Below are positions 2,646 through 55,578 of a DNA stretch of 64,000 bases, piece after piece (the first letter of the stretch is position 1; every line of letters begins with the position of its first letter). The notes under the pieces were generated by a model. That model searched no databases. It was not told the origin of the DNA and was given only the letters and a program-made list of their open reading frames with translations. Location of the stretch: IMG/VR virus record IMGVR_UViG_3300045988_034366; one strand, written 5' to 3'. Both the position numbers and the translations under genes were made by a program. Source of the DNA: a virus.

Positions 2646-2646
2646 A

Positions 2647-3672: not shown

Positions 3673-3689
3673 AACTTCTCCGTAGTTTA

Positions 3690-3727
3690 TAAAAATAAAG
3701 GGGAGAAGGAGAGTAACCCCCTCTCCT
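3690..3727 (-). terminator. intrinsic terminator-like hairpin after the capsid candidate
   Basis: Minus-strand RNA forms AGGAGAG-7 nt loop-CTCTCCT (3707-3713 / 3721-3727), followed by a U-rich run (plus-strand A-rich 3691-3700). Confidence 0.55.
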
Positions 3728-3742
3728 CCTTTGGAATTATGA

Positions 3743-19872: not shown

Positions 19873-19945
19873 TTGCAGGGGAGAGACTCGAACTCTCAAC
19901 CTCAAGGTTATGAGCCTTGCTAGCTACCATTGCTATCACCCTACG
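19873..19945 (-). tRNA. tRNA-Met(CAT), initiator-like C1xA72
   Basis: Acceptor CGTAGGG/CCCTGCA with a C1-A72 mismatch. Anticodon arm CAAGG-CTCATAA-CCTTG. T-arm GAGAG-TTCGAGT-CTCTC. Confidence 0.8.
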
Positions 19946-19956
19946 ATGTATATTAG

Positions 19957-20029
19957 AGCCTCTTGTAGGAATTGAACCCACATCTTCTGAGTACAAAACA
20001 GAAATAATAAACCTTTATACTAAAGAGGC
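19957..20029 (-). tRNA. tRNA-Thr(TGT)
   Basis: Acceptor GCCTCTT/AAGAGGC. Anticodon loop TTTGTAC. T-arm GTGGG-TTCAATT-CCTAC. The D-arm is weak. Confidence 0.75.
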
Positions 20030-20033
20030 ATTG

Positions 20034-20119
20034 TAGCTTCAGTGGGACTTGAACCCACACTTCCATTACTGGAAAACAGAGTTTAAGTCTGTCGGGTCTA
20101 CCTATTCCCCCATGAAGCC
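20034..20119 (-). tRNA. tRNA-Leu(TAA), long variable arm
   Basis: Acceptor GGCTTCA/TGAAGCT. Anticodon arm ACAGA-CTTAAAC-TCTGT. T-arm GTGGG-TTCAAGT-CCCAC. 86 nt. Confidence 0.85.
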
Positions 20120-20125
20120 TTCGTT

Positions 20126-20572
20126 TTAATAAGGTCTTACATCACACAGACCAAACAAGTATCTATACTTGTTGATATTCTGTATAAATGTCTCACATTC
20201 TGAAGTGATGCCTTTATATATAATCTCTTGAGGAATCTTGTCATAAAAAGATAATGTACCTACTTTAACTTCTTCAATGAAGTCTATAGCATTTAGTGTA
20301 TTACTTGCAGTACCTTTAATAACATTAGGTTGCATCTGCCCAAGTATTCCCATATAACCCTCTGCAAGCCCATCCTGATAATCTGATAGTATAACAAGAA
20401 ACTCATCAAGATACACATGAATATTCTTCTTAGGTGCTGCCCAATGGAGGTTTTTACACTTAGTTTTCCACCCCTCAAGTTGATTGAGGAAACTTATGAA
20501 GAATTGACTTCCTGTAGGAGAATTATTCTCTCTTTCCTCTTCCATTGGTGTAAACAAGCTATCTTCAAACAT
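20126..20572 (-). CDS. Dps/ferritin-like protein
   Basis: FLNQLEGWKTKCKNLHWAAPKKNIHVYLDEF matches the Dps helix A/B signature (KN-x-HW...H..LDEF). The track start at 20599 is a TTG inside the -7 box, so the ATG at 20572 is used. Confidence 0.5.
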   Translation of the reverse strand: MFEDSLFTPMEEERENNSPTGSQFFISFLNQLEGWKTKCKNLHWAAPKKNIHVYLDEFLVILSDYQDGLAEGYMGILGQMQPNVIKGTASNTLNAIDFIEEVKVGTLSFYDKIPQEIIYKGITSECETFIQNINKYRYLFGLCDVRPY

Positions 20573-20596
20573 ACCTTTTCTATTGTTTTGATGTTG

Positions 20597-20628
20597 CAAA
20601 GTTAAGTAAAATATTTGTAACTACCAAA
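20597..20628 (-). promoter_or_regulatory. Bacteroides-type promoter (TTTG-N20-TAacTTTGcaa)
   Basis: -7 box at 20597-20604 and -33 TTTG at 20625-20628. The ATG lies 24 nt downstream. The upstream part is near-identical to promoter 23365-23396. Confidence 0.7.
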
Positions 20629-20661
20629 CATTTTCTTAACTATTTTCCAATTATTTTCTAG

Positions 20662-20742
20662 TACCCCCTAAGAGACTCGAACTCTTACACATTGCTGCGT
20701 ATGCTCCTAAGGCATATGTGTCTACCATTCCACCAAGAGGGC
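20662..20742 (-). tRNA. tRNA-Leu(TAG), long variable arm
   Basis: Acceptor GCCCTCT/AGGGGGT with two G-U pairs. Anticodon arm TATGC-CTTAGGA-GCATA. T-arm AAGAG-TTCGAGT-CTCTT. Confidence 0.8.
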
Positions 20743-20882
20743 ATTATGACAGCTTCCTACTGGGGTTTCACCTGAATCCTATTAAAATAGGTCTACTGTA
20801 TTCACACTGCCTTTTCATAAGTAGCATAGAGGCTAATGTGTAACTTATATTATCTACCTTATTAGCATACTATTACTTACTG

Positions 20883-20957
20883 TGGGTGTTCAAAGAATCG
20901 AACTTTGTTCTAAGGATTTTCAGTCCTCCGCAATGTAACCATACCTGCCCAGCACCC
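20883..20957 (-). tRNA. tRNA-Phe(GAA)
   Basis: Acceptor GGGTGCT/AACACCC with one mismatch. Anticodon arm GAGGA-CTGAAAA-TCCTT. T-arm CAAAG-TTCGATT-CTTTG. Confidence 0.75.
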
Positions 20958-21025
20958 ATAATGACTTATTTGTGTCTCTCCCCACATCACCTTCCATAAG
21001 TCAAGGACGAAGATTTCTATTGAAG

Positions 21026-21110
21026 TGGGAGTAAAAGGACTCGAACCTATTGTGTTTCTATGTGCCAGATTTACAGTCTGGTGCCCATCCACCATCTGAG
21101 CAGTACTCCC
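21026..21110 (-). tRNA. tRNA-Tyr(GTA), long variable arm
   Basis: Acceptor GGGAGTA/TACTCCC. D-arm GCTC..GGGC. Anticodon arm CCAGA-CTGTAAA-TCTGG. T-loop TTCGAGT. Confidence 0.85.
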
Positions 21111-21262
21111 ATAAATTATTTCCCAAGTTAGTAAAGGTAGTTACCTAGGAGGTAACATACCTGAGGGCAAGTAAGTTATATTTGAAAAAGCCTGACTTAC
21201 CCTTCTTTTAAGAAATGAAATAACCTTTTTCATATCACTTAATTTAAGGGATTAATAATTAG

Positions 21263-21335
21263 TTTCCCCACTAGGAGTTGAACCTAGCTCTCATGATTAA
21301 AAGTCAAGAGCATCCACCATCAATGCTTTGGGGAA
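21263..21335 (-). tRNA. tRNA-Lys(TTT)
   Basis: Acceptor TTCCCCA/TGGGGAA. D-arm GCAT..ATGC. Anticodon loop CTTTTAA. T-arm CTAGG-TTCAACT-CCTAG. Confidence 0.8.
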
Positions 21336-21493
21336 ATGAAGCAGGGTCTTTTATAGAGGTCCTTCTGCTTTAGCTAGTTAGCTATTCTAGCTAATTCTCC
21401 CTGCATACCTCTTATTGTCACTACATCCTATATAGGAATTGTAAAAGGAAATAATATCCTATAGGAATAGCATATAAAAGATGCTTTGTCCTA

Positions 21494-21793
21494 TTACTCT
21501 CCTTCAACCATTTTGGGAGGATTTTGTTTAATAGTATTACTATCTTTTCTTTCATATTTCTCAGACCATGCTTTTGTTATGCCAGCGGATGTAAATACAG
21601 CAGCAACAGCACCTATATATGCAGCTAGACCATTTAAGTCTGTTGCTATAGTATGGTTATATATCACCTCTACTATAAGTAGTATTGCTGGTACTAATAG
21701 CAGTACCAAACCTATTACTGTAACTGCTACAAGGAAGAAGTTCTTTGAACTAACTCCTGTATTATTCTTTATAAGTTTATCTATATAACACAT
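21494..21793 (-). CDS. two-TM membrane protein embedded in the tRNA operon (99 aa, holin-like size)
   Basis: Hydrophobic segments FFLVAVTVIGLVLLLVPAILLIV and LAAYIGAVAAVFTSAGI. The opposite-strand ORF 21486-21788 is also open. Minus is chosen for co-orientation with the flanking tRNAs. Confidence 0.5.
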   Translation of the reverse strand: MCYIDKLIKNNTGVSSKNFFLVAVTVIGLVLLLVPAILLIVEVIYNHTIATDLNGLAAYIGAVAAVFTSAGITKAWSEKYERKDSNTIKQNPPKMVEGE

Positions 21794-21801
21794 GACTTAA
21801 G

Positions 21802-21876
21802 ACTTGGAGGTGGGATTTGAACCCACGAATCATCAGATTTGCAGTCTGTGCCCTTAAACCACTCGGGTACTCCAAG
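21802..21876 (-). tRNA. tRNA-Cys(GCA)
   Basis: Acceptor CTTGGAG/CTCCAAG. Anticodon loop CTGCAAA. T-arm GTGGG-TTCAAAT-CCCAC. Confidence 0.8.
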
Positions 21877-21880
21877 GTAG

Positions 21881-21958
21881 TACTGGCAGAGGGACTTGAA
21901 CCCCCATGTGACCAATTACCCTTTCTAGACTGTATAAGAGTCAGGGGATATGCCAGTA
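21881..21958 (-). ncRNA. aberrant tRNA-like gene (anticodon-like loop CTTATAC in the D-arm position)
   Basis: 8-bp terminal stem TACTGGCA/TGCCAGTA and canonical T-arm GGGGG-TTCAAGT-CCCTC. The only anticodon-like hairpin (GACT-CTTATAC-AGTC) starts 8 nt after the acceptor. No D-arm precedes it, and an AATTGG D-loop-like stretch follows it. Confidence 0.5.
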
Positions 21959-21964
21959 TGTTGG

Positions 21965-22036
21965 GGTGTCTGATGGGAGTTGAACCCACACAATTTGGAG
22001 CCACAATCCAAAGCTCTACCATTAAGCTACAGACAC
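21965..22036 (-). tRNA. tRNA-His(GTG)
   Basis: Acceptor GTGTCTG/CAGACAC with discriminator C. D-arm GCTT..GAGC. Anticodon arm TTGGA-TTGTGGC-TCCAA. Confidence 0.85.
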
Positions 22037-22038
22037 AG

Positions 22039-22110
22039 TTCTGATGAGTAGACTCGAACTACTAACTACTGCCTTATGAGAGCAGCTTTCTACCATTGAA
22101 ATACATCAGA
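22039..22110 (-). tRNA. tRNA(CAT), elongator Met or Ile2
   Basis: Acceptor TCTGATG/CATCAGA. D-arm TTTC..GAAA. Anticodon arm CTGCT-CTCATAA-GGCAG. T-arm AGTAG-TTCGAGT-CTACT. Confidence 0.85.
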
Positions 22111-22115
22111 ATATG

Positions 22116-22188
22116 TAGGGATAATAGGACTTGAACCTATAACTCCTTCCGTATCAGAGAAGTGCTCTAACCATTGAACTATATCCCT
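22116..22188 (-). tRNA. tRNA-Ile(GAT)
   Basis: Acceptor AGGGATA/TATCCCT. Anticodon arm CTTCT-CTGATAC-GGAAG. T-arm ATAGG-TTCAAGT-CCTAT. Confidence 0.85.
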
Positions 22189-22194
22189 ATATTG

Positions 22195-22266
22195 CTGATG
22201 GGATAGGATTTGAACCCATATCAGCTGGTTTTGGAGACCAGTATTTTACCATTAAACTACCCATCA
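22195..22266 (-). tRNA. tRNA-Trp(CCA)
   Basis: Acceptor TGATGGG/CCCATCA. Anticodon arm CTGGT-CTCCAAA-ACCAG. T-arm ATGGG-TTCAAAT-CCTAT. Confidence 0.85.
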
Positions 22267-22273
22267 ATTTCTG

Positions 22274-22345
22274 CGGGGGTAGAGAGAATCGAACTCTCAT
22301 CTCTTGATTAACAGTCAAGTGCATAGACCTTCCAGCTACACCCCC
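22274..22345 (-). tRNA. tRNA-Asn(GTT)
   Basis: Acceptor GGGGGTG/TACCCCC. Anticodon arm CTTGA-CTGTTAA-TCAAG. T-arm GAGAG-TTCGATT-CTCTC. Confidence 0.85.
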
Positions 22346-22351
22346 TAATTG

Positions 22352-22425
22352 TTGCTCCTATAGGACTTGAACCTATGACCTTTTCCTTGTAAGGGAACTA
22401 TTCTTAACCACTGAACTAAGGAGCA
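22352..22425 (-). tRNA. tRNA-Val(TAC)
   Basis: Acceptor TGCTCCT/AGGAGCA. Anticodon loop CTTACAA. T-arm ATAGG-TTCAAGT-CCTAT. Confidence 0.85.
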
Positions 22426-22507
22426 ATGAAGCAGTTTCTTTAACCTCTAACTGCTTAAAAAGAGGGTTCAAGCAAAAGCTCAACATTATGAAAACATGAA
22501 ACATGTG

Positions 22508-22581
22508 TGGAGAATGAGGGACTTGAACCCTAAACTTGACTTTGCAAAAGTCATGTGTTAGCCAATTACACCACAAACCCC
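22508..22581 (-). tRNA. tRNA-Ala(TGC), imperfect acceptor stem
   Basis: D-arm GTGT-AATTGGCTA-ACAC. Anticodon arm TGACT-TTTGCAA-AGTCA. T-loop TTCAAGT. Acceptor GGGGTTT/ATTCTCC has a G3-U70 pair but two U-U mismatches. Confidence 0.6.
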
Positions 22582-22586
22582 ATTAG

Positions 22587-22659
22587 TAGGGAAAAGGAGA
22601 CTCGAACTCCTGATTTCTTGCTCCCAAAGCAAGCTCCTTGACCACTAGGATATTTCCCT
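22587..22659 (-). tRNA. tRNA-Pro(TGG)
   Basis: Acceptor AGGGAAA/TTTCCCT. Anticodon arm CTTGC-TTTGGGA-GCAAG. T-arm AGGAG-TTCGAGT-CTCCT. Confidence 0.85.
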
Positions 22660-22664
22660 ATAAG

Positions 22665-22750
22665 CGGAGAGCAATGTACTCGAAACATATACAATTACTT
22701 GTACACTTTGCTTAGCAGGCAAGCCCTATAACCTCATAGGTTTACTCTCC
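22665..22750 (-). tRNA. tRNA-Ser(GCT), long variable arm
   Basis: Acceptor GGAGAGT/GCTCTCC. Anticodon arm CTTGC-CTGCTAA-GCAAG. 86 nt. Confidence 0.8.
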
Positions 22751-22755
22751 AATAG

Positions 22756-22841
22756 TGGAAGTGTGAGATGTCGATTCCCATACCTTTTATGGTACCCATA
22801 GTTTTCAAGACTAGTCTAGAGGCCGCTCTAGTTACACTTCC
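22756..22841 (-). tRNA. tRNA-Ser(TGA), long variable arm, unusual T-loop
   Basis: Acceptor GGAAGTG/CACTTCC. Anticodon loop CTTGAAA. The T-arm TGGGA-ATCGACA-TCTCA has A at position 54 instead of T. Confidence 0.75.
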
Positions 22842-22890
22842 AATTTGCCTACCCTACCGCTGTAGGAATAGGACTTTTAAGTCGGGTCGC

Positions 22891-22962
22891 AGACTATGAG
22901 GGAATTGAACCCTGACCTTCACATTGACAGTGTGATATGCAAACCATTACACTACATAGTCT
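22891..22962 (-). tRNA. tRNA-Asp(GTC)
   Basis: Anticodon arm TCACA-CTGTCAA-TGTGA. T-loop TTCAATT. Acceptor AGACTAT/ATAGTCT. Ends are uncertain by 1-2 nt. Confidence 0.8.
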
Positions 22963-22968
22963 ATATAG

Positions 22969-23041
22969 TAGAGCCACTGGGAATTGAACCCAGATTTCTG
23001 CCTTGAAAGAGCAGTTACCTAACCTTTTAGTAGATGACTCC
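22969..23041 (-). tRNA. tRNA-Glu(TTC)
   Basis: Acceptor GGAGTCA/TGGCTCT. Anticodon arm CTGCT-CTTTCAA-GGCAG. T-arm CTGGG-TTCAATT-CCCAG. Confidence 0.85.
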
Positions 23042-23047
23042 ATTTAG

Positions 23048-23119
23048 TAGGGAAGTAAGGACTTGAACCTTATCCTTAGCCTTGAGAGAGCTATGACCTA
23101 ACCTATAGTCTACATCCCC
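23048..23119 (-). tRNA. tRNA-Glu(CTC)
   Basis: Acceptor GGGGATG/CTTCCCT with one mismatch. Anticodon arm TAGCT-CTCTCAA-GGCTA. T-arm TAAGG-TTCAAGT-CCTTA. Confidence 0.8.
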
Positions 23120-23128
23120 ATTTCTTAG

Positions 23129-23200
23129 TACCCCCTGAGGGAATTGAACCCCCATTAAAGGCTTAGAAGACCCTTGCATTATCCATTATACTAAGGGGGC
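23129..23200 (-). tRNA. tRNA-Arg(TCT)
   Basis: Acceptor GCCCCCT/AGGGGGT. Anticodon arm AGGGT-CTTCTAA-GCCTT. T-arm GGGGG-TTCAATT-CCCTC. Confidence 0.85.
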
Positions 23201-23204
23201 ATTG

Positions 23205-23275
23205 TTGTTCTCATAGGACTCGAACCTATAAACTCAGCTCCAAAAACTGATGTGTTACCATTACACCAGAGAACA
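23205..23275 (-). tRNA. tRNA-Gln(TTG)
   Basis: Acceptor TGTTCTC/GAGAACA. D-arm GTGT..ACAC. Anticodon arm TCAGT-TTTTGGA-GCTGA. T-arm ATAGG-TTCGAGT-CCTAT. Confidence 0.85.
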
Positions 23276-23364: not shown

Positions 23365-23396
23365 CAAAGGTAAGCATAATTTTTGAAACTACCAAA
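23365..23396 (-). promoter_or_regulatory. Bacteroides-type promoter of the tRNA array (TTTG-N20-TAccTTTGcac)
   Basis: -7 box at 23365-23372 and -33 TTTG at 23393-23396. The first tRNA (Gln) 5' end lies 89 nt downstream. Confidence 0.7.
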
Positions 23397-24179: not shown

Positions 24180-24211
24180 CAAAGATAAGAAAAAAAAATG
24201 ACATGGCCAAA
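24180..24211 (-). promoter_or_regulatory. Bacteroides-type promoter (TTTG-N20-TAtcTTTGcac)
   Basis: -7 box at 24180-24187 and -33 TTTG at 24208-24211 on the minus strand. Confidence 0.65.
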
Positions 24212-27885: not shown

Positions 27886-27957
27886 GCTCCTATAGTTCAA
27901 TGGATAGAATAACTCTCTCCTAAAGAGTAGATACAGGTTCAATTCCTGTTGGGAGTA
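27886..27957 (+). tRNA. tRNA-Arg(CCT)
   Basis: Acceptor GCTCCTA/TGGGAGT. D-arm GTTC..GAAT. Anticodon arm ACTCT-CTCCTAA-AGAGT. T-arm ACAGG-TTCAATT-CCTGT. Confidence 0.8.
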
Positions 27958-28084
27958 CAATAATAACAAGGTATTTACTCATATAAGGTAAATTGATTGT
28001 GTTTATTAGGTAATGTGTTAGAATTTTAATCGGTGACTTATTGTCACTACAGCATGATGGTCTGTGAAGATAGTCATGCTTAAT

Positions 28085-28156
28085 GTCTCCATAGTTCAAG
28101 GGATAGAACAATAGTCTTCTAAACTATATATCTGAGTTCGAGTCTCAGTGGAGATA
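28085..28156 (+). tRNA. tRNA-Arg(TCT), second copy
   Basis: Acceptor GTCTCCA/TGGAGAT. D-arm GTTC..GAAC. Anticodon arm ATAGT-CTTCTAA-ACTAT. T-arm CTGAG-TTCGAGT-CTCAG. Confidence 0.85.
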
Positions 28157-28365
28157 CTATGAGTCCACTGTACTCCTTTCATAATGACTATAAATAGTAT
28201 AGAAAAGGATGCTAATAGGTAAGCTATTACCACTTAGTAAATGCAACAGCTTCAATGTGGGGATATAAAGAAGAAGCTACGTGACTTAAATACAAAATTC
28301 AATAGGAAAGCTGTATGACTTTGTTAGGACATTCTTTCAATATGAAATGAATCCATTTTTATTAA

Positions 28366-28439
28366 GGGCCTATAGCTCAAGTGGTTAGAGCAACACACTC
28401 ATAATGTGAAGGTTTAGGGTTCAAATCCCTATTGGCCCA
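28366..28439 (+). tRNA. tRNA(CAT), Met or Ile2
   Basis: Acceptor GGGCCTA/TTGGCCC. D-arm GCTC..GAGC. Anticodon loop CTCATAA. T-arm TAGGG-TTCAAAT-CCCTA. Confidence 0.8.
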
Positions 28440-45292: not shown

Positions 45293-45458
45293 TAAATTGC
45301 CTGTATTGGAATATGACCCTAATCCTATTATTTTCAAGGATAATGTGGATGCTACTATAAGAGAGGTAAAACAAAGACTTGGGGTTTTACAGACTCTTAA
45401 GGCAGAAATAGATTACCGATTAACTTTAACTCATGCAGATGATGAAGAGTTTACGTGA
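45252..45458 (+). CDS. hypothetical protein (68 aa)
   Basis: Small ORF overlapping both neighbours. Confidence 0.45.
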   Translation: MQQNVIHKLIQQANKLPVLEYDPNPIIFKDNVDATIREVKQRLGVLQTLKAEIDYRLTLTHADDEEFT

Positions 45459-46170
45459 TATTTCATGGCAAGTAAGTGAAGAGGGGTATAGGGCAGACCC
45501 TGCACTTAGCTACTCTACTCTTGCAAGATATGAAAGAGAGGGGTTTAATAACTTGGATAAGCTATTTGACAGGATAGAAACCCCCTCCCTTACCTTTGGC
45601 TCTGCTGTAGATTCTATCATTACAGGTGGGCAAGAGGAGTTTGATGAAAGGTTCATGGTAGCTGAGTTTCCCTCAATGCCTGACTCTATTGTGAAGATAA
45701 TAAAATCTTTGTATAAACAATATGCTGGAACATATAGGAGCCTGCTTAATATATCTGATAGTTCAATTATTAGAGAAACTGAAGACCAAAACTATCAAAT
45801 GAATTGGAAACCTGAAACAAGGGCTAAGGTTATCAAAGAAAAAGGTACTGACTACTATAATTTATTGTTTGTAGCAGGTGATAGGTGTATCATAGATACT
45901 CAGACTTATCAGGATGTAGTTAATGCAGTTAGAGTATTGAAGGAAAGTAGCTCTACCAAGTTATACTTTGCAGATGACAATCCCTTTGAGCCTGATATTG
46001 AAAGATTATATCAGTTGAAGTTTAAGGGAGAGTTTGATGGTATAACCTATAGAAATATGGCTGACTTAATTATAGTCAATCATAAAGAGAAATGGGTAAA
46101 GCCAGTAGATTTGAAAACAAGTTCCCATACAGAGTGGGACTTTTATAAGTCCTTTGTAGATTGGAGATAT
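45433..46170 (+). CDS. PD-(D/E)XK recombination exonuclease, exon 1 of 2
   Basis: ADLIIVN...VKPVDLKTS nuclease core. The reading frame is interrupted after ...FVDWRY by the intron. The track ORF runs 3 codons into the intron. Confidence 0.65.
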
Positions 46171-46195
46171 GAAAAATAAGTAATTTATTTATTAA

Positions 46196-46227
46196 TTTGG
46201 AGATACGAGAAATTTTACTTATCTTTG
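46196..46227 (+). promoter_or_regulatory. Bacteroides-type promoter inside the intron (TTTG-N20-TAtcTTTGcat)
   Basis: -33 at 46196-46199 and -7 at 46220-46227. The LAGLIDADG ATG lies 24 nt downstream. Confidence 0.65.
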
Positions 46228-46251
46228 CATTGAATTATAAATCAATGTATT

Positions 46252-46899
46252 ATGAGAAAGTATAATTTTAATGAACATTATTTTGATATTATAGATTGTC
46301 AAGAAAAAGCTTATTGGTTAGGATTCTTTGCAGCGGATGGATATAATCATGTAGGTAAAGGTTGTATAGAGTTTAGATTACATAAACAAGATAAAGAAAT
46401 ATTAGAAAAATTCAAATCTTGTATAGAAGCTAATAACCCCATTGGATTATATAAACAAACTTATTGTAATTTGACTTTATATTCCCAACATCTATGTAAT
46501 AAGTTGTCTGAATATGGGTTAAGTCAAGCAAAGACTTACACATTGCAAATTCCTCAATTAGATTATAAATTAATGAGACATTTTATAAGAGGGTATTATG
46601 ATGGTGATGGCTGTTTTTCTGTAACAAAAAGAAAAGATAGAACTGAAAATAGTCTAATTTACCAATTTAATATTACTGGAATGGAAAATCCTCTTAGAAA
46701 AATGCAAGAGCATTTAATAAATAATGTAGGAGTTGTTGATAATGGGCTAAAGCATAGAAAGTCTACTATTGCTGTCACTATTCACTATAGTGGAAAGAAT
46801 GTATGTAAAAGAATACTTGATTATCTATATCAGGATGCTACTATATATCTTCAAAGAAAATATAATAAATATAAAGAATATTGTATCTCGGCAGAGTAA
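46252..46899 (+). CDS. LAGLIDADG homing endonuclease (double-motif)
   Basis: Two LAGLIDADG motifs: YWLGFFAADGYN and FIRGYYDGDGCF. Confidence 0.85.
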   Translation: MRKYNFNEHYFDIIDCQEKAYWLGFFAADGYNHVGKGCIEFRLHKQDKEILEKFKSCIEANNPIGLYKQTYCNLTLYSQHLCNKLSEYGLSQAKTYTLQIPQLDYKLMRHFIRGYYDGDGCFSVTKRKDRTENSLIYQFNITGMENPLRKMQEHLINNVGVVDNGLKHRKSTIAVTIHYSGKNVCKRILDYLYQDATIYLQRKYNKYKEYCISAE

Positions 46900-47206
46900 T
46901 CTGCAATAATAAAAAACCTCGTGAATTCAGGGAACATCCTAAGACTTGAAATTTAATATATAGGTCTAAAATTGTTTGAAATATAACAGCCTATAATATA
47001 TAAATGGGTTATTCTAGGACAATCCTGAGCCAAGCCTTAATAATAAGGAAGGTGCAACGACTATCCCTTTATGGGAGTACACTCAAGTGAGTGGAAGTGC
47101 GAGGCTCCTAAGAAATTAGGATGATGATATAGTCTCATCTATATGGTAACATATAGCAGTTCATAAGAGAACGCAGATAAATTAACGACTTATCTGGAAG
47201 ATAATG

Positions 47207-47521
47207 GATATTCAAGCCAGACTATATTGGTCTATTATAAGACAAAATATGGATAAGGATGAGTACTTCAAAGACTTCAAGCTACTTGACTATGATTTCA
47301 TTGTAGTCAATAAGAGGACTTTAACTCCTCTTGTATGGAACTGTCCCTTTACTCAAGCACAAGGTACATTGAGATTTGGTAATAATTCTCAAATTGAAAT
47401 GAGAAGTCCCTTTGAGATAGGAAAGGAGCTTAATTCCTATCTCACTTCAAGACCAAAAGTGCCTATGGGAATTAATGAGACTGGTACTAATAATTTAAAA
47501 GATTGGTTAAATAAACTATGA
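47207..47521 (+). CDS. PD-(D/E)XK recombination exonuclease, exon 2 of 2
   Basis: Begins DIQARLYWSIIRQ (the QxxxY motif of RecB-type nucleases), in frame with exon 1. Confidence 0.65.
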   Translation, partial: DIQARLYWSIIRQNMDKDEYFKDFKLLDYDFIVVNKRTLTPLVWNCPFTQAQGTLRFGNNSQIEMRSPFEIGKELNSYLTSRPKVPMGINETGTNNLKDWLNKL

Positions 47522-47762: not shown

Positions 47763-49527
47763 ATGCAGGTAATAAAAAGAGACAAAAGCAAAGAAGAATT
47801 TGACATCAGTAAGATTAATAGAGCTGTAAGAAAAGCCTTTGAGTCTTGTAATAAGAAGATGCCTCAATATCTTGGAGATATGATTCATGCCCTATTTAGT
47901 ACCTTGGAAGGAGATACAATAGGCATTGAAGAAATCCAAAATAAAGTTGAGGATATACTTATGAATGAGAAGCACTTTGATGTAGCAAAGAGTTATATCA
48001 TTTATAGAAATAAACATGAAGAGTCTAGGTTCATTAGAGGAAGAATTGATTACATGTCTAACTATGAAGATTCTGATGATAATGCTGCTAGTTCTTCAGA
48101 GACTGACCCTAATGCTAATGTAACTCAGAAGAATGTTGCCAATCTTGATGGAGAAGTTTATAAGGTAGAGAATAGAATTATTCAGAGACAGAGAATGAAG
48201 GATGAACTTAATGTCCTTTACCCAGAGGTGGCAAAGCAATATAAAATAGATGTTGAGAATCATATAATATATCCTCATGATGAAGCTAGTGTGCCTACTT
48301 TGAAGTTCTATTGTCAAGCAGATTCTCTTTACCCACTTATGACAGAAGGTGTAGGTAATATAGATGGTATAACACCCTCTCATCCTAATGATTTACCATC
48401 ATTTAGTGGACAAATAACTAATCTTGCCTTCTTGCTTTCTTCCCAATGTAAAGGTGCAGTAGCCTTTGGAGAATATTTCATTGTTCTAAACTATTACATT
48501 ATTGCAGAGTTTGGAGATAAGTGGTATGAGAAGCTTGATTGTGTTGTAACAAATTCTCATTGTAAGGTTCAAAGGACGGTCAGAGATATAATAGAGAAAG
48601 CTTTCAAACAGTTTATCTATGGTGTTAATCAGCCTGCTGGTAATAGGTCCTATCAGAGTCCATTTACAAATGTGTCTTATTATGACCATACATACTTCAG
48701 TTCACTGTTTGGAGAGTTTTACTACCCTGATGGAACTAAGCCTGAGTGGGCTGCAATTAATGTTCTTCAGAAGATGTTTATGAAATTCTTCAATAAACTC
48801 AGAACCAAGAAGATTTTGACCTTCCCTGTTGAAACATTAGCAATGGTACATGATGGCAAAGATATTATAGATAAGGAATATAAGGACTTCTGTGCAGAAA
48901 TGTATGCAGAAGGACACTCATTCTTTACCTATATTTCAGATAGTGCTGATAGTCTTGCATCATGCTGTAGATTGAGAAATGAGTTTACAGAGAATACATT
49001 TAATCCTACATCAGGTCTTACTGGTGTTATGACTGGTAGCTGTCATGTTATCACTCTTAATATTAATAGGATTGTACAAGATTCTTTAAAAAAGTATGCT
49101 AATGAACATGGAGAAGATATATCTAAATATAAATGTTGGGGAAGTGATGCTAAAGAAGCTATTTTAGATGAACTACTTGATATTCTTGAAAGAGTATATA
49201 AGTATCATATTGCTTATAAGACTATGCTCTATGAGCAAGAAGAGAAAGGCATGTTTGCAGCTTGTAATGGTGGCTATATACACATGAACAAGTTATATAG
49301 TACCATTGGTATCAATGGCTTGAATGAAGCAGCTAAATTCTTAGGTCTTGAGGTATCTAATAATCCTGAATATATTAAGTTCTTACAGTTTATTCTTGGC
49401 ACTATTAAGGAACAGAACAAGTTACACTCTATCCATGACAAGAAGAGACCTTTCTTGTTTAATTCTGAGGTAGTTCCTGCTGAATCTCTTGGTGGTAAGA
49501 ATTATAGATGGGATAAAAAGGATGGAT
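47763..49527 (+). CDS. nrdD: anaerobic (class III) ribonucleotide reductase NrdD, exon 1 of 2
   Basis: N-terminal ATP-cone (VIKRDKSKEEFDISKINRAV). The frame is interrupted after ...RWDKKDG plus 1 nt. Confidence 0.8.
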
Positions 49528-52159: not shown

Positions 52160-52431
52160 TGAAAGATTTAATTAAGTTGAGGTCAAGAGGTGGAGCTGAG
52201 AACTACCTTAAGAAGTTGATAAAGAAGGGTGATTCTGAGTCACTTACCTATGTACTTGAGACTGATAGTCCCTATCTTAGGACAGGTGAAGTAGCTAATG
52301 GAAGAAAATTCATTGACCCATCTGGTGGACCAATGATTGTAGTAGGTGATTATCTTGAAGAAGCCAATGCTGTTGTAGAATCTATAGACTTTGCAGAAGG
52401 ATATGGTTGGACTATAACTTTTAAGAAATGA
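52159..52431 (+). CDS. hypothetical protein (90 aa)
   Basis: Its start overlaps the upstream stop at nt 52159, and its stop overlaps the polymerase start. Confidence 0.6.
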   Translation: MKDLIKLRSRGGAENYLKKLIKKGDSESLTYVLETDSPYLRTGEVANGRKFIDPSGGPMIVVGDYLEEANAVVESIDFAEGYGWTITFKK

Positions 52432-54483
52432 TATATTTTGTTACTGGTGAGAGGAAGCTATTTGAATTTCCTGAAGCTAAGTATAAATGTATTTCTGTAG
52501 AAGAGAGTTTCAATATATTGGAGTCTTTGCAGATTGTAGGTTTGGATACTGAGACTACAGGTACAGAGATATGGCAAGGTATGTTACTTACCCTCCAGCT
52601 TGGCAATAGGGAGAATCAGGTAGTAATAGACTGCTTGACTATTGATGTCAAGAAGTATAAAGACTATCTTGAAAGTGACAGATTATTCATTATCCATAAT
52701 GCAAAGTTTGACTTGAGATGGCTGTATAAGGAACATATTGTAGTCAGAAATGTCTATGATACTTATTTGGCTGAAAAGATTCTATTTCTTGGATTCCCTC
52801 CAGGTATTGTATCTCTCTCTTTGCAGGCTTGTTGTGACAGGTATTTAGGTATTTATCTTGACAAGACTGTAAGAGGGCAGATACATGCTGGGATGACAGA
52901 AGAGGTTATAGTTTATGCTGCAAATGATGTAGTGCATCTTGAAGATATTATGAACTTACAGCTCAACACTATCAATGCAAGGGGTCAGAAAGTAGCACTT
53001 GACATTGAGAATGAGTTTGTAAGGGTTCTTGCATATATTGAGTTTTGTGGTATTAAACTTGACCCTATCATGTGGAAAGCTAAGATGGATAAGGATGCAG
53101 AGAGGCTAAGGGCAGCTGAACAGAAACTTAATGAGTGGGTAGTGGATTATGTAATGAAGAAGGGAGATACCTCTAACATTGCGAGAAACTATGATACTAA
53201 CAGAAGAGGCAAAAAAGCTAAGCTGGCTGATAATGTATATGTAGTTATTCCATCTCCTTCATTGTTTTCTGAATATGATACTGGGCCTCAATGTATAATT
53301 AATTGGAATAGCTCCAAACAGGTTATCAGATTGTTTGAAGAACTCGGATTTGATTTATTGGTCAAAGACAAGAAAACAGGCAAGATGAAGAAGTCTGTGG
53401 AGTCCAAGTTTATAGAATTGCAAGCTAATAAGAGTACTATAGTACCTTTGTACTTGGAGTACTCAGCAGCTTTTAAGGTAGTAACATCTTTTGGCCAAAA
53501 CTTCCTTGATGCAATTAATCCTGTAACACATAGAATACATCCTACATTCAATCAAATGATGGATACTGGTAGATTAAGTTGTGGCTCAGGTGGTAAAGGC
53601 AAAGGAGGAAAGACCAAGGATGATGATGTCGCAGAGGAGGAAGATGGAAGCAAGGATACTTCTATACAATCAAATGATAAGAGTGTCAATGTGCAGCAAC
53701 TTCCTGCTACAGAAGAGACAAGAGCAGCATTTGTTCCTGAAAAGGGGTATATGCTTATAGATTGTGATTATGGAGACCAAGAGGGACATGTATTCACTGA
53801 ACTATCTAATGATAGGGAGTGGATTGCATTTTATAATGACCCTAATCAAAGAGATGGACATTCTTTTGTAGCTAAGATGTGTTTCCCCAAAGACCTTGAT
53901 GGTGTAGAGGAGAAAGATGTCAAGAAAGTAAGAAAAGACCTTAGGTCTTTGGCTAAGAAGGCAAGGTTCTGTTTCAATTATAATGGCCAAGCCCCCACAA
54001 TGGCAACCAATTGCAATATCCCCATAGACTTTGCAACTGAGATATATAACAACTACTTCAAGAGGTTTAATGGTATAGCAAGCTATTTCAAAGTCCAAAA
54101 GAGAGATATGTGGGATAGAGGATATATCCTAATTTCAAAGATAACTGGGCTTAGGGCATACATCTATGACTATCCTATACTGAAGGGCATTGAAAGAAGA
54201 AAGAATGGTATGGAGGATTTTTGGGATATATATAAAGCCTCTAGGGATAGTGGCAGAGTAGTATCCGAAATACCACCAACTATTATGCAAGAGATTGCCA
54301 AGAGGTTTGCTCAAGGAAAACCTATTGAAGAAATAGCTGTTACTTACTCATATAAGGTAAAGAAAGCAGGTAAAGTTGAAGAAAGGTTCATAGACATTAA
54401 CAGGGAAACTGTATATGTGTCTGTGATGAAACACTTATGGAAGAGAAAGAGTGCATCTGATAACCAATCATGCAATTATCCCT
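52428..54483 (+). CDS. family A DNA polymerase, exon 1 of 2 (3'-5' exonuclease + palm motifs A and B)
   Basis: Exo motifs GLDTETTG, NAKFDLRWL and YAANDVVHL. NVQQLP followed by LIDCDYGDQE (motif A). RSLAKKARFCFNYNG (motif B). The frame is interrupted after ...SCNYP plus 1 nt. Confidence 0.8.
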
Positions 54484-54539
54484 TAATTGCGGGGGCATAT
54501 AGTAGTGATGCTATATGAAAAACTCAGTGAATTGCTGGA

Positions 54540-54561
54540 AAGCTAAGGATAAATCTATGCT
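54540..54561 (+). repeat. 22-nt direct repeat AAGCTAAGGATAAATCTATGCT, copy 1
   Basis: Perfect repeat of 54617-54638. The two copies bracket the intron R element. Confidence 0.8.
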
Positions 54562-54616
54562 AATCAGCAGCCAAGGCTTGTAGAAATGCAAGTAAGGTTC
54601 AGAGACTAATCAAAGT

Positions 54617-54638
54617 AAGCTAAGGATAAATCTATGCT
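54617..54638 (+). repeat. 22-nt direct repeat AAGCTAAGGATAAATCTATGCT, copy 2
   Basis: Perfect repeat of 54540-54561, 77 nt downstream. Confidence 0.8.
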
Positions 54639-54684
54639 GAAATGGACAAGAGTGCTGAGTATCTCTTAATTATTTATTTACCCT

Positions 54685-54716
54685 ATTGGATAATTAAGAA
54701 AAAATTTGTATCTTTG
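54685..54716 (+). promoter_or_regulatory. Bacteroides-type promoter inside the intron (ATTG-N20-TAtcTTTGtac)
   Basis: -33 at 54685-54688 and -7 at 54709-54716. The endonuclease ATG lies 25 nt downstream. Confidence 0.6.
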
Positions 54717-54741
54717 TACTATAAATTAAAGATAACAAATT

Positions 54742-55317
54742 ATGAAGAGATGTTCAAGTTGTGGTAAGTTAAAGGATGAGTCAGAGTTTTATCATTATAA
54801 GTCATCAAAAGATGGCTTAACTCACCAGTGTAAGCAATGTATGTCTGAATATAGAGCTTCTAAAAGAGAGCATTATAAAGAGTACATGGCTCATAGGAGA
54901 GAAGTAGATAATGAGACTATAAAAGCTAATAGAAGAAAGCATTATAGGAATCATCCTGAGAGTAGAATGTTAATGGCAGCTAAGCAAAGAGCCAAGAATC
55001 AAGGATTAGAGTTTAACTTAACTATAGATGATATAGTTATTCCTGATAAATGCCCTTTGTTAGAAGTTCCTTTTGTTGCTGGAGAAAAAGGTAATTATGA
55101 ATATACACCCTCCCTTGATAGAATAGACCCTACTAAGGGATACATTAAAGGAAATGTATGGGTAATTACCAAAAGAGCAAATACAATGAAGAATAGTGCA
55201 ACAAGGGAAGAACTATTAAAGTTTGCTGATAACATCTATAAATATTTTGGAGATAATGATATAGTCCAACCTATTGAGAAATCAATAGAACTACAGGATA
55301 AAGAGCCTGTAGGGTAA
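54742..55317 (+). CDS. HNH/His-Me-finger homing endonuclease
   Basis: N-terminal CxxC...CxxC ribbon like the nrdD-intron enzyme. SLDRIDPTKGYIKGNVWVITKRANTMKN nuclease block. Its 3' 60 nt overlap the intron S element and P9 hairpins. Confidence 0.75.
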   Translation: MKRCSSCGKLKDESEFYHYKSSKDGLTHQCKQCMSEYRASKREHYKEYMAHRREVDNETIKANRRKHYRNHPESRMLMAAKQRAKNQGLEFNLTIDDIVIPDKCPLLEVPFVAGEKGNYEYTPSLDRIDPTKGYIKGNVWVITKRANTMKNSATREELLKFADNIYKYFGDNDIVQPIEKSIELQDKEPVG

Positions 55318-55324
55318 TAAATTG

Positions 55325-55578
55325 CACAAGGGACAGCTGCTGCAATGACTAAGATTGCTGGTATCAGGTACTTCAATCACCTAGTCAAAGATGGTTTGAT
55401 ATTTAAGGTACTCATACCTAATGATGTACATGATGAATACCTTATAGAACCTCCTGCTGAAATAGCAGAGCAGGAAGCCAAGAAGCTGAGTGAGTGTATG
55501 GAGTATGCAGCTAGAATTTTCTGTAAGAAAGTGACCATCAAGGCTGAGCCTGAAATTGCAGACCATTGGGTGCATTAA
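55325..55578 (+). CDS. family A DNA polymerase, exon 2 of 2 (motif C)
   Basis: (S)QGTAAAMTKIAG...PNDVHDEYLIE carries the catalytic motif C (HDE). Confidence 0.8.

What the first reader, a model, noticed from the sequence alone, without database searches (positions are those of the whole stretch)
46171..47206. Group I intron in the recombination exonuclease gene, with the homing-endonuclease gene apparently in the P1 loop
The PD-(D/E)XK exonuclease ORF stops 3 codons after ...FVDWRY and resumes 1 kb later with DIQARLYW.
- A contiguous 14-nt guide, GAATATT-GTATCTC (46876-46889), pairs with both exon ends.
- Its 3' half pairs with the last 7 nt of exon 1 (GAGATAT), with a U-G wobble exactly at the junction.
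- Its 5' half pairs with the first 7 nt of exon 2 (GATATTC).
- R-like and S-like core elements, a GTAA-capped hairpin and a terminal G at 47206 follow.
- The guide lies about 700 nt downstream of the 5' splice site, inside the last codons of the LAGLIDADG ORF. So the endonuclease gene and its promoter sit in loop L1. That is an unusual placement compared with the usual peripheral loops of P2, P6, P8 or P9.
Basis: partly seen in the sequence, partly recalled or inferred. Interest (0 to 1): 0.65.

Follow-up and report, generated by a model that had tools for sequence, protein, structure and literature searches.

The report
Mobile self-splicing intron in crAss-like phage
A gut (crAss-like) phage nuclease gene is interrupted by a genuine mobile self-splicing group I intron whose homing-endonuclease gene sits in the loop of the first helix (P1); this is a clean new example of an arrangement already documented in other organisms.

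Summary
Window 46171-47206 is a 1036-nt group I intron (Rfam RF00028, 89.6 bits) in the replication-block PD-(D/E)XK exonuclease gene of a Beta-group (Steigviridae-like) crAss-like phage. Removing it gives exactly the sequence ...GATTGGAGATAT|GATATTCAAG... found uninterrupted in 39+ related phages, including 98%-identical ones. The 14-nt guide at 46876-46889 forms P1 (U.G at the 5' splice site) and P10 as described.

The intact double-motif LAGLIDADG gene (46252-46899) does lie in the P1 loop. More precisely, it sits in the terminal loop of an extended P1-P1a-P1b stem. Its last 54 nt encode the 3' strands of P1b and P1a, the guide and half of P2. Support comes from compensatory changes, a shuffle test (z = -5) and three natural ORF-deletion variants whose breakpoints all fall inside that loop. 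A conserved Bacteroides-type promoter motif precedes the ORF.

The intron is 100% identical between phages whose exons are 73-78% identical, so it is actively mobile.

The "unusual placement" claim is overstated. P1 insertions are documented (Physarum I-PpoI, Synechocystis tRNA-fMet intron with P1/P2 overlap, fungal mitochondria), and group I introns are known in crAss-like phages.

Verdict: real, well resolved, a new member of a known kind. Splicing itself is inferred, not shown.

The parts
45433..46170 (+). Exon 1 of the PD-(D/E)XK (PDDEXK_b / exonuclease VIII-like) gene, ending ...FVDWRY
   Evidence: ORF list. The spliced product hits Pfam DUF3799 PDDEXK and phrog_412 exonuclease VIII. Colinear with the uninterrupted 347-aa gene of cr85_1.
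46171..47206 (+). Group I intron, 1036 nt, 28.7% G+C
   Evidence: RF00028 at 89.6 bits. Its excision reproduces the empty site found in 39+ loci. Same insertion in cr116_1, bajarodcaudo virus 1 and 12 IMG/VR contigs.
46164..46172 (+). P1 5' strand (GAGAUAU|GA); the 5' splice site follows U46170
   Evidence: Pairs with 46881-46889. U.G at 46170.46883 is invariant in 6 variants. The two intron-side pairs change compatibly (G.U to A-U, A-U to G.U).
46177..46179 (+). In-frame UAA that stops exon-1 ribosomes two codons into the intron
   Evidence: The feature is described as typical of bacterial and phage group I introns in PMC3073962.
46183..46193 (+). P1a 5' strand (AUUUAUUUAUU)
   Evidence: Pairs with 46859-46870. 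Two pairs show U-A to C-G double changes in diverged copies.
46196..46205 (+). P1b 5' strand (UUUGGAGAUA). It is a near copy of the exon-1 end, and its first four bases are the -33-like TTTG
   Evidence: Pairs with 46846-46855. G.U to G-C in two copies. TTGGAGATA is repeated at 46161 and 46197.
46196..46227 (+). Promoter-like site TTTG-N20-TATCTTTG (Bacteroides -33/-7 type), 24 nt upstream of the endonuclease ATG
   Evidence: 10 sites in the window against 1.8 expected, 0/100 shuffles. Motif and spacing are conserved in all 6 diverged intron copies, and it resembles the sites upstream of the tRNA arrays. Function is inferred.
46252..46899 (+). Homing-endonuclease gene, 215 aa, double-motif LAGLIDADG (LGFFAADG, RGYYDGDG)
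   Evidence: Pfam LAGLIDADG_3 at 39.7 bits and LAGLIDADG_1 at 28.1 bits. phrog_4645 endonuclease, E = 2e-49. Weak matches to I-PanMI and I-AniI in PDB.
46846..46855 (+). P1b 3' strand (UAUCUUCAAA), inside the endonuclease coding sequence
46859..46870 (+). P1a 3' strand (AAUA[U]AAUAAAU), inside the endonuclease coding sequence
   Evidence: The compensating A-to-G changes in L092 are synonymous in the ORF.
46876..46889 (+). Internal guide sequence: 46876-46882 forms P10 with exon 2, and 46881-46889 forms P1
   Evidence: Invariant except G46876 to A in L093.
46891..46904 (+). P2 (GCAGA/UCUGC) with a GUAA loop. The endonuclease stop codon UAA (46897-46899) lies in the loop
   Evidence: one C-G to U-A double change.
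46917..47104 (+). P3 (46917-23/47098-104) enclosing P4 (46927-32/47023-28), P5 (46937-41/47015-19), P6 (47029-31/47051-53), P6a (47035-38/47045-48), the P7 5' strand (47059-63), P7.1 (47064-67/47073-76) and P7.2 (47080-84/47089-93)
   Evidence: Coordinates. Pair counts, with double changes in P4, P5, P6a and P7.2.
46942..47014 (+). 73-nt insertion in L5, specific to one sublineage and folding as an extension of P5
   Evidence: Absent from cr116_1, L089, L092, L093 and L094. No other copy in the window.
47106..47121 (+). P8 (UCCUAA GAAA UUAGGA)
   Evidence: three pairs with double changes.
47130..47134 (+). P7 3' strand (UAGUC, within the S element), forming a pseudoknot with 47059-47063
   Evidence: Invariant, so covariation gives no evidence for or against it.
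47139..47196 (+). P9 with GUAA loop (47139-47156), P9.1 (47159-62/47169-72), P9.2 (47174-80/47190-96)
   Evidence: one double change in P9, three in P9.2.
47206..47206 (+). Terminal G (omega-G); the 3' splice site follows it
   Evidence: G immediately before GATATTCA in all six variants.
47207..47521 (+). Exon 2 of the exonuclease gene, starting DIQARLYW (QxxxY motif)

Best explanation
Window 46171-47206 is a mobile group I (IA-type, with P7.1/P7.2) self-splicing intron. It is inserted in the replication-block PD-(D/E)XK exonuclease gene of a Beta-group crAss-like phage, between the (D/E)xK motif and the QxxxY motif.

**How it works**
- The pre-mRNA folds so that the last 7 nt of exon 1 pair with the guide 711 nt downstream (U46170.G46883).
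- Two helper helices bridge that distance: P1a (46183-93 with 46859-70) and P1b (46196-205 with 46846-55). They close the base of a ~640-nt loop that carries the LAGLIDADG homing-endonuclease gene.
- Guanosine-initiated splicing then joins ...WRY to DIQ..., restoring a 350-aa nuclease.
- The endonuclease is probably transcribed from its own Bacteroides-type promoter inside the loop. It would cut intron-less alleles at TTGGAGATAT|GATATTCAAG, and repair would copy the intron in.
- The last 54 nt of the ORF double as the 3' strands of P1b and P1a, the guide and the P2 5' strand. Translating the endonuclease and forming P1 on the same RNA molecule should therefore be mutually exclusive.

**Shown:** intron identity, the junction, the helices with covariation, the ORF family, the sporadic distribution and the horizontal spread.

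**Inferred:** actual splicing, promoter activity, the cleavage site and the translation/splicing conflict.
For: - **Ribozyme:** RF00028 at 89.6 bits, full-length. Related copies score 86-98 bits.
- **Junction:** excision gives TCCTTTGTAGATTGGAGATAT|GATATTCAAGCCAGACTATAT, identical to 39 intron-less loci. About 70 of 79 IMG/VR loci are uninterrupted across residues 1-350. cr85_1 has an uninterrupted 347-aa gene.
- **Core model:** 68 pairs, 99.3% paired, 12 pairs changed on both sides against 0-1 in slid controls. The unconstrained MFE of the ORF-less construct recovers all helices.
- **Extended P1:** recovered by MFE in natural mini-introns, in 6 sequence variants and by RNAalifold with 3 double changes. 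Duplex energy is -21.9 kcal/mol against -8.9 +/- 2.6 for shuffles (0/2000). The best partner anywhere in the intron is exactly the 46845 segment.
- **Deletion series:** three independent ORF deletions (L071 747 nt, L074 551 nt, bajarodcaudo 448 nt) keep both sides of the stem. The 5' splice site to guide distance ranges from 126 to 714 nt.
- **Endonuclease:** LAGLIDADG Pfam hits.
- **Promoter motif:** enriched in the window and conserved across copies.
- **Mobility:** the intron is 100% identical between phages whose exon 1 is 73-78% identical. The nearest exon relatives (98%) lack it.
Against: - No RNA data: splicing, the transcription start and endonuclease activity are all untested.
- P1 proper, P7, P7.1 and P9.1 never vary among the six variants, so covariation says nothing about them.
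- The six variants are related. The shuffle control can overstate significance, although the slid controls do not.
- Higher identity within 60 nt of the junction cannot be read as co-conversion, because intron-less L011 shows it too.
- Formal subgroup assignment (IA2) rests on the presence of P7.1/P7.2 only. No subgroup models were available.
Confidence: 0.9

Rival explanations
1. The real P1 is the local hairpin that the Rfam model draws (46867-46875 with 46880-46888, U46872.G46883). The endonuclease ORF would then be the upstream exon, giving an endonuclease-exon 2 fusion. The exonuclease halves would be separate genes.
For: cmscan aligns its P1 5' strand to AAAUAUAAA just upstream of the guide. 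Position 46872 ends a codon of the endonuclease frame, so a fusion would be in frame (my arithmetic).
Against: - The local hairpin has two non-canonical pairs.
- The would-be splice-site U is C in L092 and L093 (AAATAC), which removes the U.G pair that group I 5' splice sites require.
- The empty sites show that the inserted DNA starts at 46171, not 46873.
- The covariance model has no way to represent a 700-nt L1, so it must pick a local partner.
Confidence: 0.02
2. The ORF is not in P1. A second guide close to the 5' splice site forms P1, and the ORF lies in P2 or between P1 and P2.
For: TTATCTT at 46219-46225 can pair with 6 of the last 7 exon bases (my inspection).
Against: - That pairing puts U opposite the splice-site U, so there is no U.G.
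- The segment is removed in the L071, L074 and bajarodcaudo deletion variants, which keep an otherwise perfectly conserved ribozyme.
- The 5' leader's best partner in the whole intron is the 46845-46889 block.
- The guide at 46876-46889 sits immediately 5' of P2, as in every group I intron.
Confidence: 0.02
3. The intron is a splicing-dead relic. The nuclease is either a pseudogene or works as two separately translated fragments (248 aa and 105 aa).
For: Both fragments are annotated as separate CDSs in cr116_1 and bajarodcaudo virus 1. Exon 2 happens to begin with ATG at 47204.
Against: - Ribozyme helices are maintained by 12 compensated pairs across copies whose ORFs differ by up to 22% in amino-acid sequence.
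- The terminal G and both guide pairings are conserved.
- Exon 2 stays conserved and colinear with uninterrupted genes.
- The ATG is made of the last three intron bases (AUG|GAU) and is absent in L089, L093 and L094, which end ...TTG.
Confidence: 0.05

Closest known systems
Synechocystis PCC 6803 tRNA-fMet group I intron with its PD-(D/E)XK endonuclease (PMC3073962, Table 1)
   Same: A bacterial-type group I intron with the endonuclease gene inserted in P1. The ORF's end overlaps P1/P2 (61 nt there, 54 nt here over P1b/P1a/guide/P2).
   Different: The host gene is a tRNA rather than a protein-coding gene. The endonuclease family differs (PD-(D/E)XK against LAGLIDADG). No P1a/P1b helper stem or internal promoter is listed in that table; I did not examine its sequence.
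Physarum polycephalum Ppo.L1925 intron encoding I-PpoI (PMC3073962 Table 1; PMC3679873)
   Same: Mobile group I intron with the endonuclease gene in P1.
   Different: Nuclear rDNA host, His-Cys box enzyme, no overlap with core helices, eukaryotic expression.
Hypomyces aurantius mitochondrial cox3-i2 upstream intron (PMC4964425)
   Same: Group IA intron with a double-motif LAGLIDADG coding region in the P1 loop.
   Different: Fungal mitochondrion, the ORF is degenerate there, and it is part of a tandem intron complex.
Phage T4 td intron with I-TevI (as described in PMC3073962)
   Same: Phage group I intron in a nucleotide/DNA-metabolism gene. It has a stop codon just inside the intron, and the ORF's 3' end contributes to core helices ('core creep'). 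Ribosomes on the ORF interfere with splicing, and the element is mobile by homing.
   Different: ORF in the P6 loop, GIY-YIG family, 20-nt overlap with P6a/P7. Here the overlap involves the substrate helix and guide rather than the catalytic core.
Staphylococcus phage Twort nrdE intron with I-TwoI, and Enterococcus phage EF1 introns
   Same: Closest ribozyme cores by sequence in cultured phages (81-82% identity over 108-165 nt from P6 to P9).
   Different: Different host genes. The annotated Twort endonuclease is HNH and ends just upstream of the segment aligned to P6'/P7, so it is not in P1. The ORFs were therefore acquired independently of the core.
Group I introns of Delta and Zeta crAss-like phages (PMC7886860)
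   Same: Same phage order. Group I introns with endonuclease ORFs (including LAGLIDADG) in core replication and structural genes.
   Different: That paper lists MCP, PolB, primase, ATP_43b and the RNAP genes, identified through protein domains. It does not describe an intron in the PDDEXK_b nuclease of Beta-group phages, and it gives no RNA structures.

Membership tests
Group I intron (Rfam RF00028) | Conserved catalytic core P3-P9 with the P/Q/R/S elements | tested here: met
   89.6 bits against a gathering score of 50, model positions 1-253. Explicit model 99.3% paired with 12 doubly-changed pairs.
Group I intron (Rfam RF00028) | P1 formed by the 5' exon end and an internal guide, with U.G at the cleavage site | tested here: met
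   GAGAUAU pairs with GUAUCUC, with U46170.G46883. Invariant in 6 variants, and the two adjoining intron pairs vary compatibly. No covariation is possible in the exon part.
Group I intron (Rfam RF00028) | Terminal G at the 3' splice site, and P10 between the guide and the 3' exon | tested here: met
   G precedes GATATTCA in all variants. P10 has 7 bp, or 6 bp in L093 where G46876 is A.
Group I intron (Rfam RF00028) | P3/P7 pseudoknot carrying the guanosine-binding site | tested here: inconclusive
   GACUA/UAGUC can pair and P3 is 100% paired. P7 never varies, so it is supported only by the match to the R/S consensus.
Group I intron (Rfam RF00028) | Guanosine-dependent self-splicing | not testable with these tools
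   Needs an in vitro splicing assay or RNA-seq.
Subgroup IA2 (phage-type group I introns) | Extra hairpins P7.1 and P7.2 between P7 and P3' | tested here: met
   P7.1 at 47064-67/47073-76 and P7.2 at 47080-84/47089-93, the latter with one double change. No subgroup-specific models were available, so the assignment to IA2 rather than another IA subgroup rests on my knowledge of the classification.
LAGLIDADG homing endonuclease | One or two LAGLIDADG motifs with the conserved acidic residue, and a family profile match | tested here: met
   LAGLIDADG_3 at 39.7 bits (cut-off 22.5, two stretches) and LAGLIDADG_1 at 28.1 bits (cut-off 23.1). The motifs LGFFAADG and RGYYDGDG are read from the sequence.
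LAGLIDADG homing endonuclease | Site-specific cleavage of the intron-less allele | not testable with these tools
   Predicted target TTGGAGATAT|GATATTCAAG. Needs a cleavage assay.
Mobile (homing) intron | Sporadic presence at one site, intact empty sites in relatives, and intron phylogeny discordant with host phylogeny | tested here: met
   6 of 79 exonuclease loci carry it, plus more found through the ORF. 39 identical empty sites. Intron 100% identical against exons 73-78% identical. ORF-decay variants are present.
PD-(D/E)XK nuclease (host gene) | Profile match spanning the catalytic motifs, restored only after splicing | tested here: met
   DUF3799 PDDEXK-like at 26.4 bits (cut-off 26) over residues 197-264, which spans the junction at 246|247. 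phrog_412 exonuclease VIII, E = 3e-15. The motif assignment (VDLK, QARLY) is my reading.

The most novel reading that the evidence does not exclude
The extended P1 stem may be more than a clamp; it may act as a built-in switch. Its outer helix P1b has three properties:
- It is a near copy of the ligated-exon homing site: 17/19 identical once the ORF loop is removed, and 1/3000 random joins score as high.
- Its 5' arm doubles as the -33 element of the endonuclease promoter.
- Its 3' arm, P1a and the guide are read as endonuclease codons.

If this is functional, transcripts from the upstream promoter would fold P1-P1a-P1b and splice. Transcripts from the internal promoter lack all the 5' strands and would serve only as endonuclease mRNA. 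The target-like hairpin would mark the spot where a free endonuclease gene originally invaded an ORF-less intron. This may also be the first LAGLIDADG gene in P1 described for a phage intron; I could not verify that.
Probability: 0.2. Interest if true: 0.45.

Novelty: new member of a known kind. Interest (0 to 1): 0.3.

Why it matters
- **Annotation.** It corrects public records. In cr116_1 and bajarodcaudo virus 1 the nuclease is split into unrelated-looking CDSs, whereas it is one spliced 350-aa gene.
- **Distribution.** It extends documented group I introns in Crassvirales to the Beta/Steigviridae group and to the replication-block PDDEXK nuclease.
- **A natural experiment.** The data include full, partly deleted and nearly ORF-less copies, plus diverged copies with compensated helices. 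Together these show how a ribozyme tolerates a 640-nt insertion in its substrate helix and how an ORF creeps into P1/P2. The same set offers ready-made constructs for testing the conflict between translation and splicing.

None of this changes what is known about how group I introns or homing endonucleases work.

Tried and rejected
- **Distant endonuclease homologs (31-37% identity, L096-L107).** I scanned them for intron cores to see whether this endonuclease family is habitually in P1. None reached the Rfam gathering score, so they are uninformative.
- **Missing Rfam hits.** cr116_1 (L001), Twort (L083) and L013 gave no hit. For cr116_1 this was a filter artefact, because a focused search gives 92 bits. 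Twort and L013 were not rechecked.
- **Co-conversion tracts.** Identity rises to 85-95% within 60 nt of the junction, but intron-less L011 shows the same rise. I rejected this as evidence for co-conversion.
- **The internal copy GAGATAC (46201-46207) as an alternative 5' splice site.** Rejected as productive. It has C instead of U in the window. The exon-1 frame has already met UAA at 46177-46179, and the 37-nt offset shifts the frame. In all folds the copy pairs with 46846-46855, not with the guide.
- **Literature searches.** 'L1 loop' with LAGLIDADG found nothing. Two queries failed on term length. Loizos et al. 1994 (PMC45360) is not held, so it is cited only through the reference list of PMC3984707.
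- **PDB sequence search with the endonuclease.** It gave only weak matches (E about 0.003; I-PanMI, I-AniI). I did not pursue structure prediction because the family assignment was already clear.
- **The 73-nt L5 insertion as a repeat element.** There is no other copy in the window.
Full report
**Context.** The window is a crAss-like phage. The region matches bajarodcaudo virus 1 (85%), cr116_1 (Crassvirales, Steigviridae, Asinivirinae) and cr85_1. Gene order is uracil-DNA glycosylase, small ORFs, the PD-(D/E)XK nuclease, then the anaerobic ribonucleotide reductase, the same as in those genomes. A family-A DNA polymerase lies downstream, as in the Beta group of PMC7886860.

**Observation.**
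- The upstream ORF ends ...FVDWRYEK* at 46179, and the downstream ORF begins MDIQARLYW at 47204.
- Joining 46170 to 47207 is in frame and gives 350 aa.
- The 14-mer GAATATTGTATCTC at 46876-46889 pairs through its 3' half with GAGATAT of exon 1 (six Watson-Crick pairs and U.G at the junction). Its 5' half pairs with GATATTC of exon 2.
- Rfam's group I model matches 46863-47156 over its full length at 89.6 bits and puts its P1 3' strand on the same guide.
- The ORF 46252-46899 is a double-motif LAGLIDADG endonuclease.

**The junction is fixed by empty sites.** A search of IMG/VR with the spliced protein returned 79 loci, about 70 of which encode residues 1-350 without interruption. In 39 of them the DNA reads TCCTTTGTAGATTGGAGATAT|GATATTCAAGCCAGACTATAT, identical to the window after removal of 46171-47206. 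Some of these loci are 98% identical to the window's exons. cr85_1 has an uninterrupted 347-aa gene reading FVDWNYQIQARLYW across the site. Shifting both boundaries by one base gives the same product, but only the stated choice places U before the 5' splice site and keeps G as the last intron base.

**Ribozyme anatomy.** Diverged copies were found through the endonuclease protein: L089-L091, L093 and L094, plus L092 (the same contig as L079) and cr116_1. With these I aligned six sequence variants from the guide to the terminal G. I then tested an explicit model comprising P2, P3, P4, P5, P6, P6a, P7 (as a pseudoknot), P7.1, P7.2, P8, P9, P9.1 and P9.2 (coordinates).
- Of 400 cells, 99.3% form standard pairs.
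- Twelve pairs have changes on both sides. Sliding the 3' partners by 1-3 columns gives 0-1 such pairs and 34-45% pairing.
- P7, P7.1 and P9.1 never vary and are supported only by consensus.
- The unconstrained minimum-energy fold of the intron with the ORF body replaced by GAAA recovers all these helices.
- P7.1 and P7.2 mark it as an IA-type intron, like other phage introns. The nearest cores in cultured phages are the Twort nrdE intron and introns of Enterococcus phage EF1.

**Where the endonuclease gene sits.** The ORF lies between the 5' splice site and the guide, so it is inside P1. The structure is more elaborate than a large L1.
- Folds of the natural short forms and of all six variants give three stacked helices: P1 (46164-46172 with 46881-46889), P1a (46183-46193 with 46859-46870, one bulged U) and P1b (46196-46205 with 46846-46855). 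The ORF body occupies the P1b loop.
- The 5' leader pairs with the 3' block at -21.9 kcal/mol, against -8.9 +/- 2.6 for shuffles (0 of 2000). Sliding along the whole intron, its best partner is exactly that block.
- RNAalifold finds two U-A to C-G double changes in P1a and one C-G to U-A change in P2, plus several one-sided G.U changes. In L092 the changes on the 3' strand are synonymous in the endonuclease frame (AGA to AGG, AAA to AAG), with matching changes in the non-coding 5' strand.
- Three independent deletion derivatives exist: L071 (747 nt), L074 (551 nt) and bajarodcaudo virus 1 (448 nt). All have lost ORF sequence, but all keep intron bases 1-34 and the last ~65 nt of the ORF, so the breakpoints lie in the P1b loop. 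The 5' splice site to guide distance ranges from 126 to 714 nt.
- The last 54 nt of the ORF (46846-46899) therefore encode both protein and the 3' strands of P1b and P1a, the guide and the 5' strand of P2. The stop codon lies in the GUAA loop of P2.

**Promoter.**
- TTTG-N20-TATCTTTG at 46196-46227 matches the Bacteroides -33/-7 pattern (consensus from my knowledge).
- The pattern TTTG-N18-22-TAnnTTTG occurs 10 times in the window against 1.8 expected, with no shuffle reaching 10.
- The intron copy closely resembles three copies upstream of the tRNA arrays.
- Motif and 20-nt spacing are kept in all six variants although the flanks of L093 and L094 have diverged. The ATG follows 20-24 nt later.
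- Activity is inferred, not shown. The -33 TTTG forms the first four bases of the P1b 5' strand.

**Mobility.** The intron is 100% identical between the window and L070, L072, L074 and L078, whose exon 1 is only 73-78% identical to the window's. The closest exon relatives lack it. Altogether 12 IMG/VR contigs, two GenBank phages and the window carry it, always at the same site. Intact, diverged and decaying ORFs coexist. This is the expected picture for an element spreading by homing and then degenerating. The higher identity next to the junction is not evidence of co-conversion, because intron-less L011 shows it too.

**Mechanism.** The sequence data show:
- a structurally conserved group I ribozyme;
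- a guide matching both exon ends;
- a terminal G;
- an intact LAGLIDADG gene in the P1b loop;
- horizontal spread.

The following are inferred:
- The transcript from the nuclease promoter folds P1-P1a-P1b and self-splices. The UAA two codons into the intron stops exon-1 ribosomes, a feature PMC3073962 describes as typical.
- The endonuclease is made mainly from a shorter transcript that lacks the 5' strands.
- The enzyme cuts TTGGAGATAT|GATATTCAAG.
- Ribosomes finishing the ORF would unwind the guide and P2, so translation and splicing exclude each other on one molecule. PMC3073962 describes such a conflict for I-TevI and the T4 td intron.

**Comparison with what is known.**
- P1 is a recognised location for endonuclease genes. 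PMC3679873 lists 'P1, P2, P6, P8 or P9'.
- PMC3073962 Table 1 lists I-PpoI in P1, and the Synechocystis tRNA-fMet intron with the ORF in P1 and 61 nt of overlap with P1/P2.
- PMC4964425 describes a double LAGLIDADG region in the P1 loop of a mitochondrial IA1 intron.
- ORF ends that extend into core helices are the 'core creep' of PMC3073962.
- Group I introns with endonucleases are described in crAss-like phages, mainly the Delta and Zeta groups (PMC7886860).
- I found no paper describing this intron, and public records annotate the two exons as separate genes.
- It is therefore a new member of a known kind. The helper stem, the deletion series and the dual-coding tail are instructive details.

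**Rivals.**
- The local hairpin drawn by the covariance model is not a conserved splice site. Its U is C in two variants, and the insertion demonstrably starts at 46171.
- No alternative guide near the 5' splice site gives a U.G pair, and that segment is dispensable in the deletion variants.
- A dead intron with two separate polypeptides is hard to reconcile with the compensated helices. The 'start codon' of exon 2 is made of the last three intron bases, and three variants lack it.

**Side observation on origin.** With the loop removed, the P1b arms read TTGGAGATACGATCTTCAA against the homing site TTGGAGATATGATATTCAA. That is 17 of 19 matches, and 1 of 3000 random joins scores as high. This fits the idea that an endonuclease gene invades an intron at a sequence resembling its own target. 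That idea comes from Loizos et al. 1994, cited in PMC3984707; I could not read the paper itself. The homing site is partly palindromic and P1b is a hairpin, so the two halves of the match are not independent. I treat this as a lead only.

**Verdict.** Novelty is modest and interest is about 0.3.

Noticed in passing
window 52428-55578: A second group I intron (RF00028 at 54473-54708, 62.4 bits) splits the family-A DNA polymerase gene. Exon 1 matches Pfam DNA_pol_A up to profile position 278, and ORF 55345-55578 matches positions 309-380. A 191-aa Cys-rich ORF (54742-55317) lies downstream of the core and has no Pfam hit. In my notebook I called it HNH-type; that is not supported by any search.
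   Followed up: partly
window 46195-46207 and 46843-46858: With the ORF loop removed, the two arms flanking it read TTGGAGATACGATCTTCAA. This is 17/19 identical to the intron's own homing site (1/3000 random joins score as high). It may be a footprint of the endonuclease gene invading at a target-like site, or a by-product of hairpin and target symmetry.
   Followed up: partly
window 47872-47884: The 13-mer TTGGAGATATGAT, identical to the centre of the homing site, recurs about 660 nt downstream in the N-terminal coding region of the anaerobic ribonucleotide reductase gene (codons LGDMI). It is also present in intron-less close relatives (L004, L005, L006, L009), so it is a lineage feature. 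Whether it is a secondary target is unknown.
   Followed up: partly
window 46942-47014: A 73-nt insertion in loop L5 is present in the window-type introns (L070-L074, L078, L085, bajarodcaudo) but absent from cr116_1, L089, L092, L093 and L094. It folds as an extension of P5 and has no other copy in the window.
   Followed up: yes
window 19874-23275 (-) and 27886-28439 (+); promoter-like sites at 20597-20628, 23365-23396 and 24180-24211 (-): There are 24 tRNA hits in two arrays. Three very similar TTTGG-N-CTTAnCTTTGCA promoter-like sites sit upstream of the minus-strand arrays, and they resemble the site inside the intron.
   Followed up: partly
L001 (cr116_1, MT774389) 1817-3851; L003 (bajarodcaudo virus 1, PQ006092) 2450-3950: Public annotations give the nuclease as two unrelated CDSs. 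In cr116_1 they are 'PD-(D/E)XK superfamily exonuclease' and 'hypothetical protein'. In bajarodcaudo they are four 'hypothetical proteins', including two spurious small ORFs inside the intron. The intron is not annotated in either record.
   Followed up: yes
L059 5151-5394, L050 4381-4644, L071 404-644, L084 2039-2321 and 2387-2611: Related phages carry further group I introns. There are relatives of this core in the ribonucleotide reductase gene region, another intron upstream of the nuclease in L071, and two adjacent cores in Enterococcus phage EF1. Introns seem common in this Beta-group neighbourhood.
   Followed up: no
window 47181-47189 (loop of P9.2): The P9.2 stem covaries (three doubly-changed pairs), but its 9-nt loop keeps UAACGAC in all six variants. 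This suggests a tertiary contact. No partner was identified.
   Followed up: no
window 46171-46210 compared with L001, L093, L094: The distance that exon-1 ribosomes can read into the intron varies. It is 2 codons in the window (UAA 46177-46179) but about 12-13 codons in cr116_1 and L093, and longer in L094. In those copies the ribosomes would run through the P1a and P1b 5' strands.
   Followed up: no
L002, L044, L049-L051, L055-L057, L069: A second class of empty site, TGGAATTAT|CAAATTCAGG (WNY|QIQ), differs at five positions around the junction and never carries the intron. It would not pair with the guide and may resist the endonuclease.
   Followed up: no
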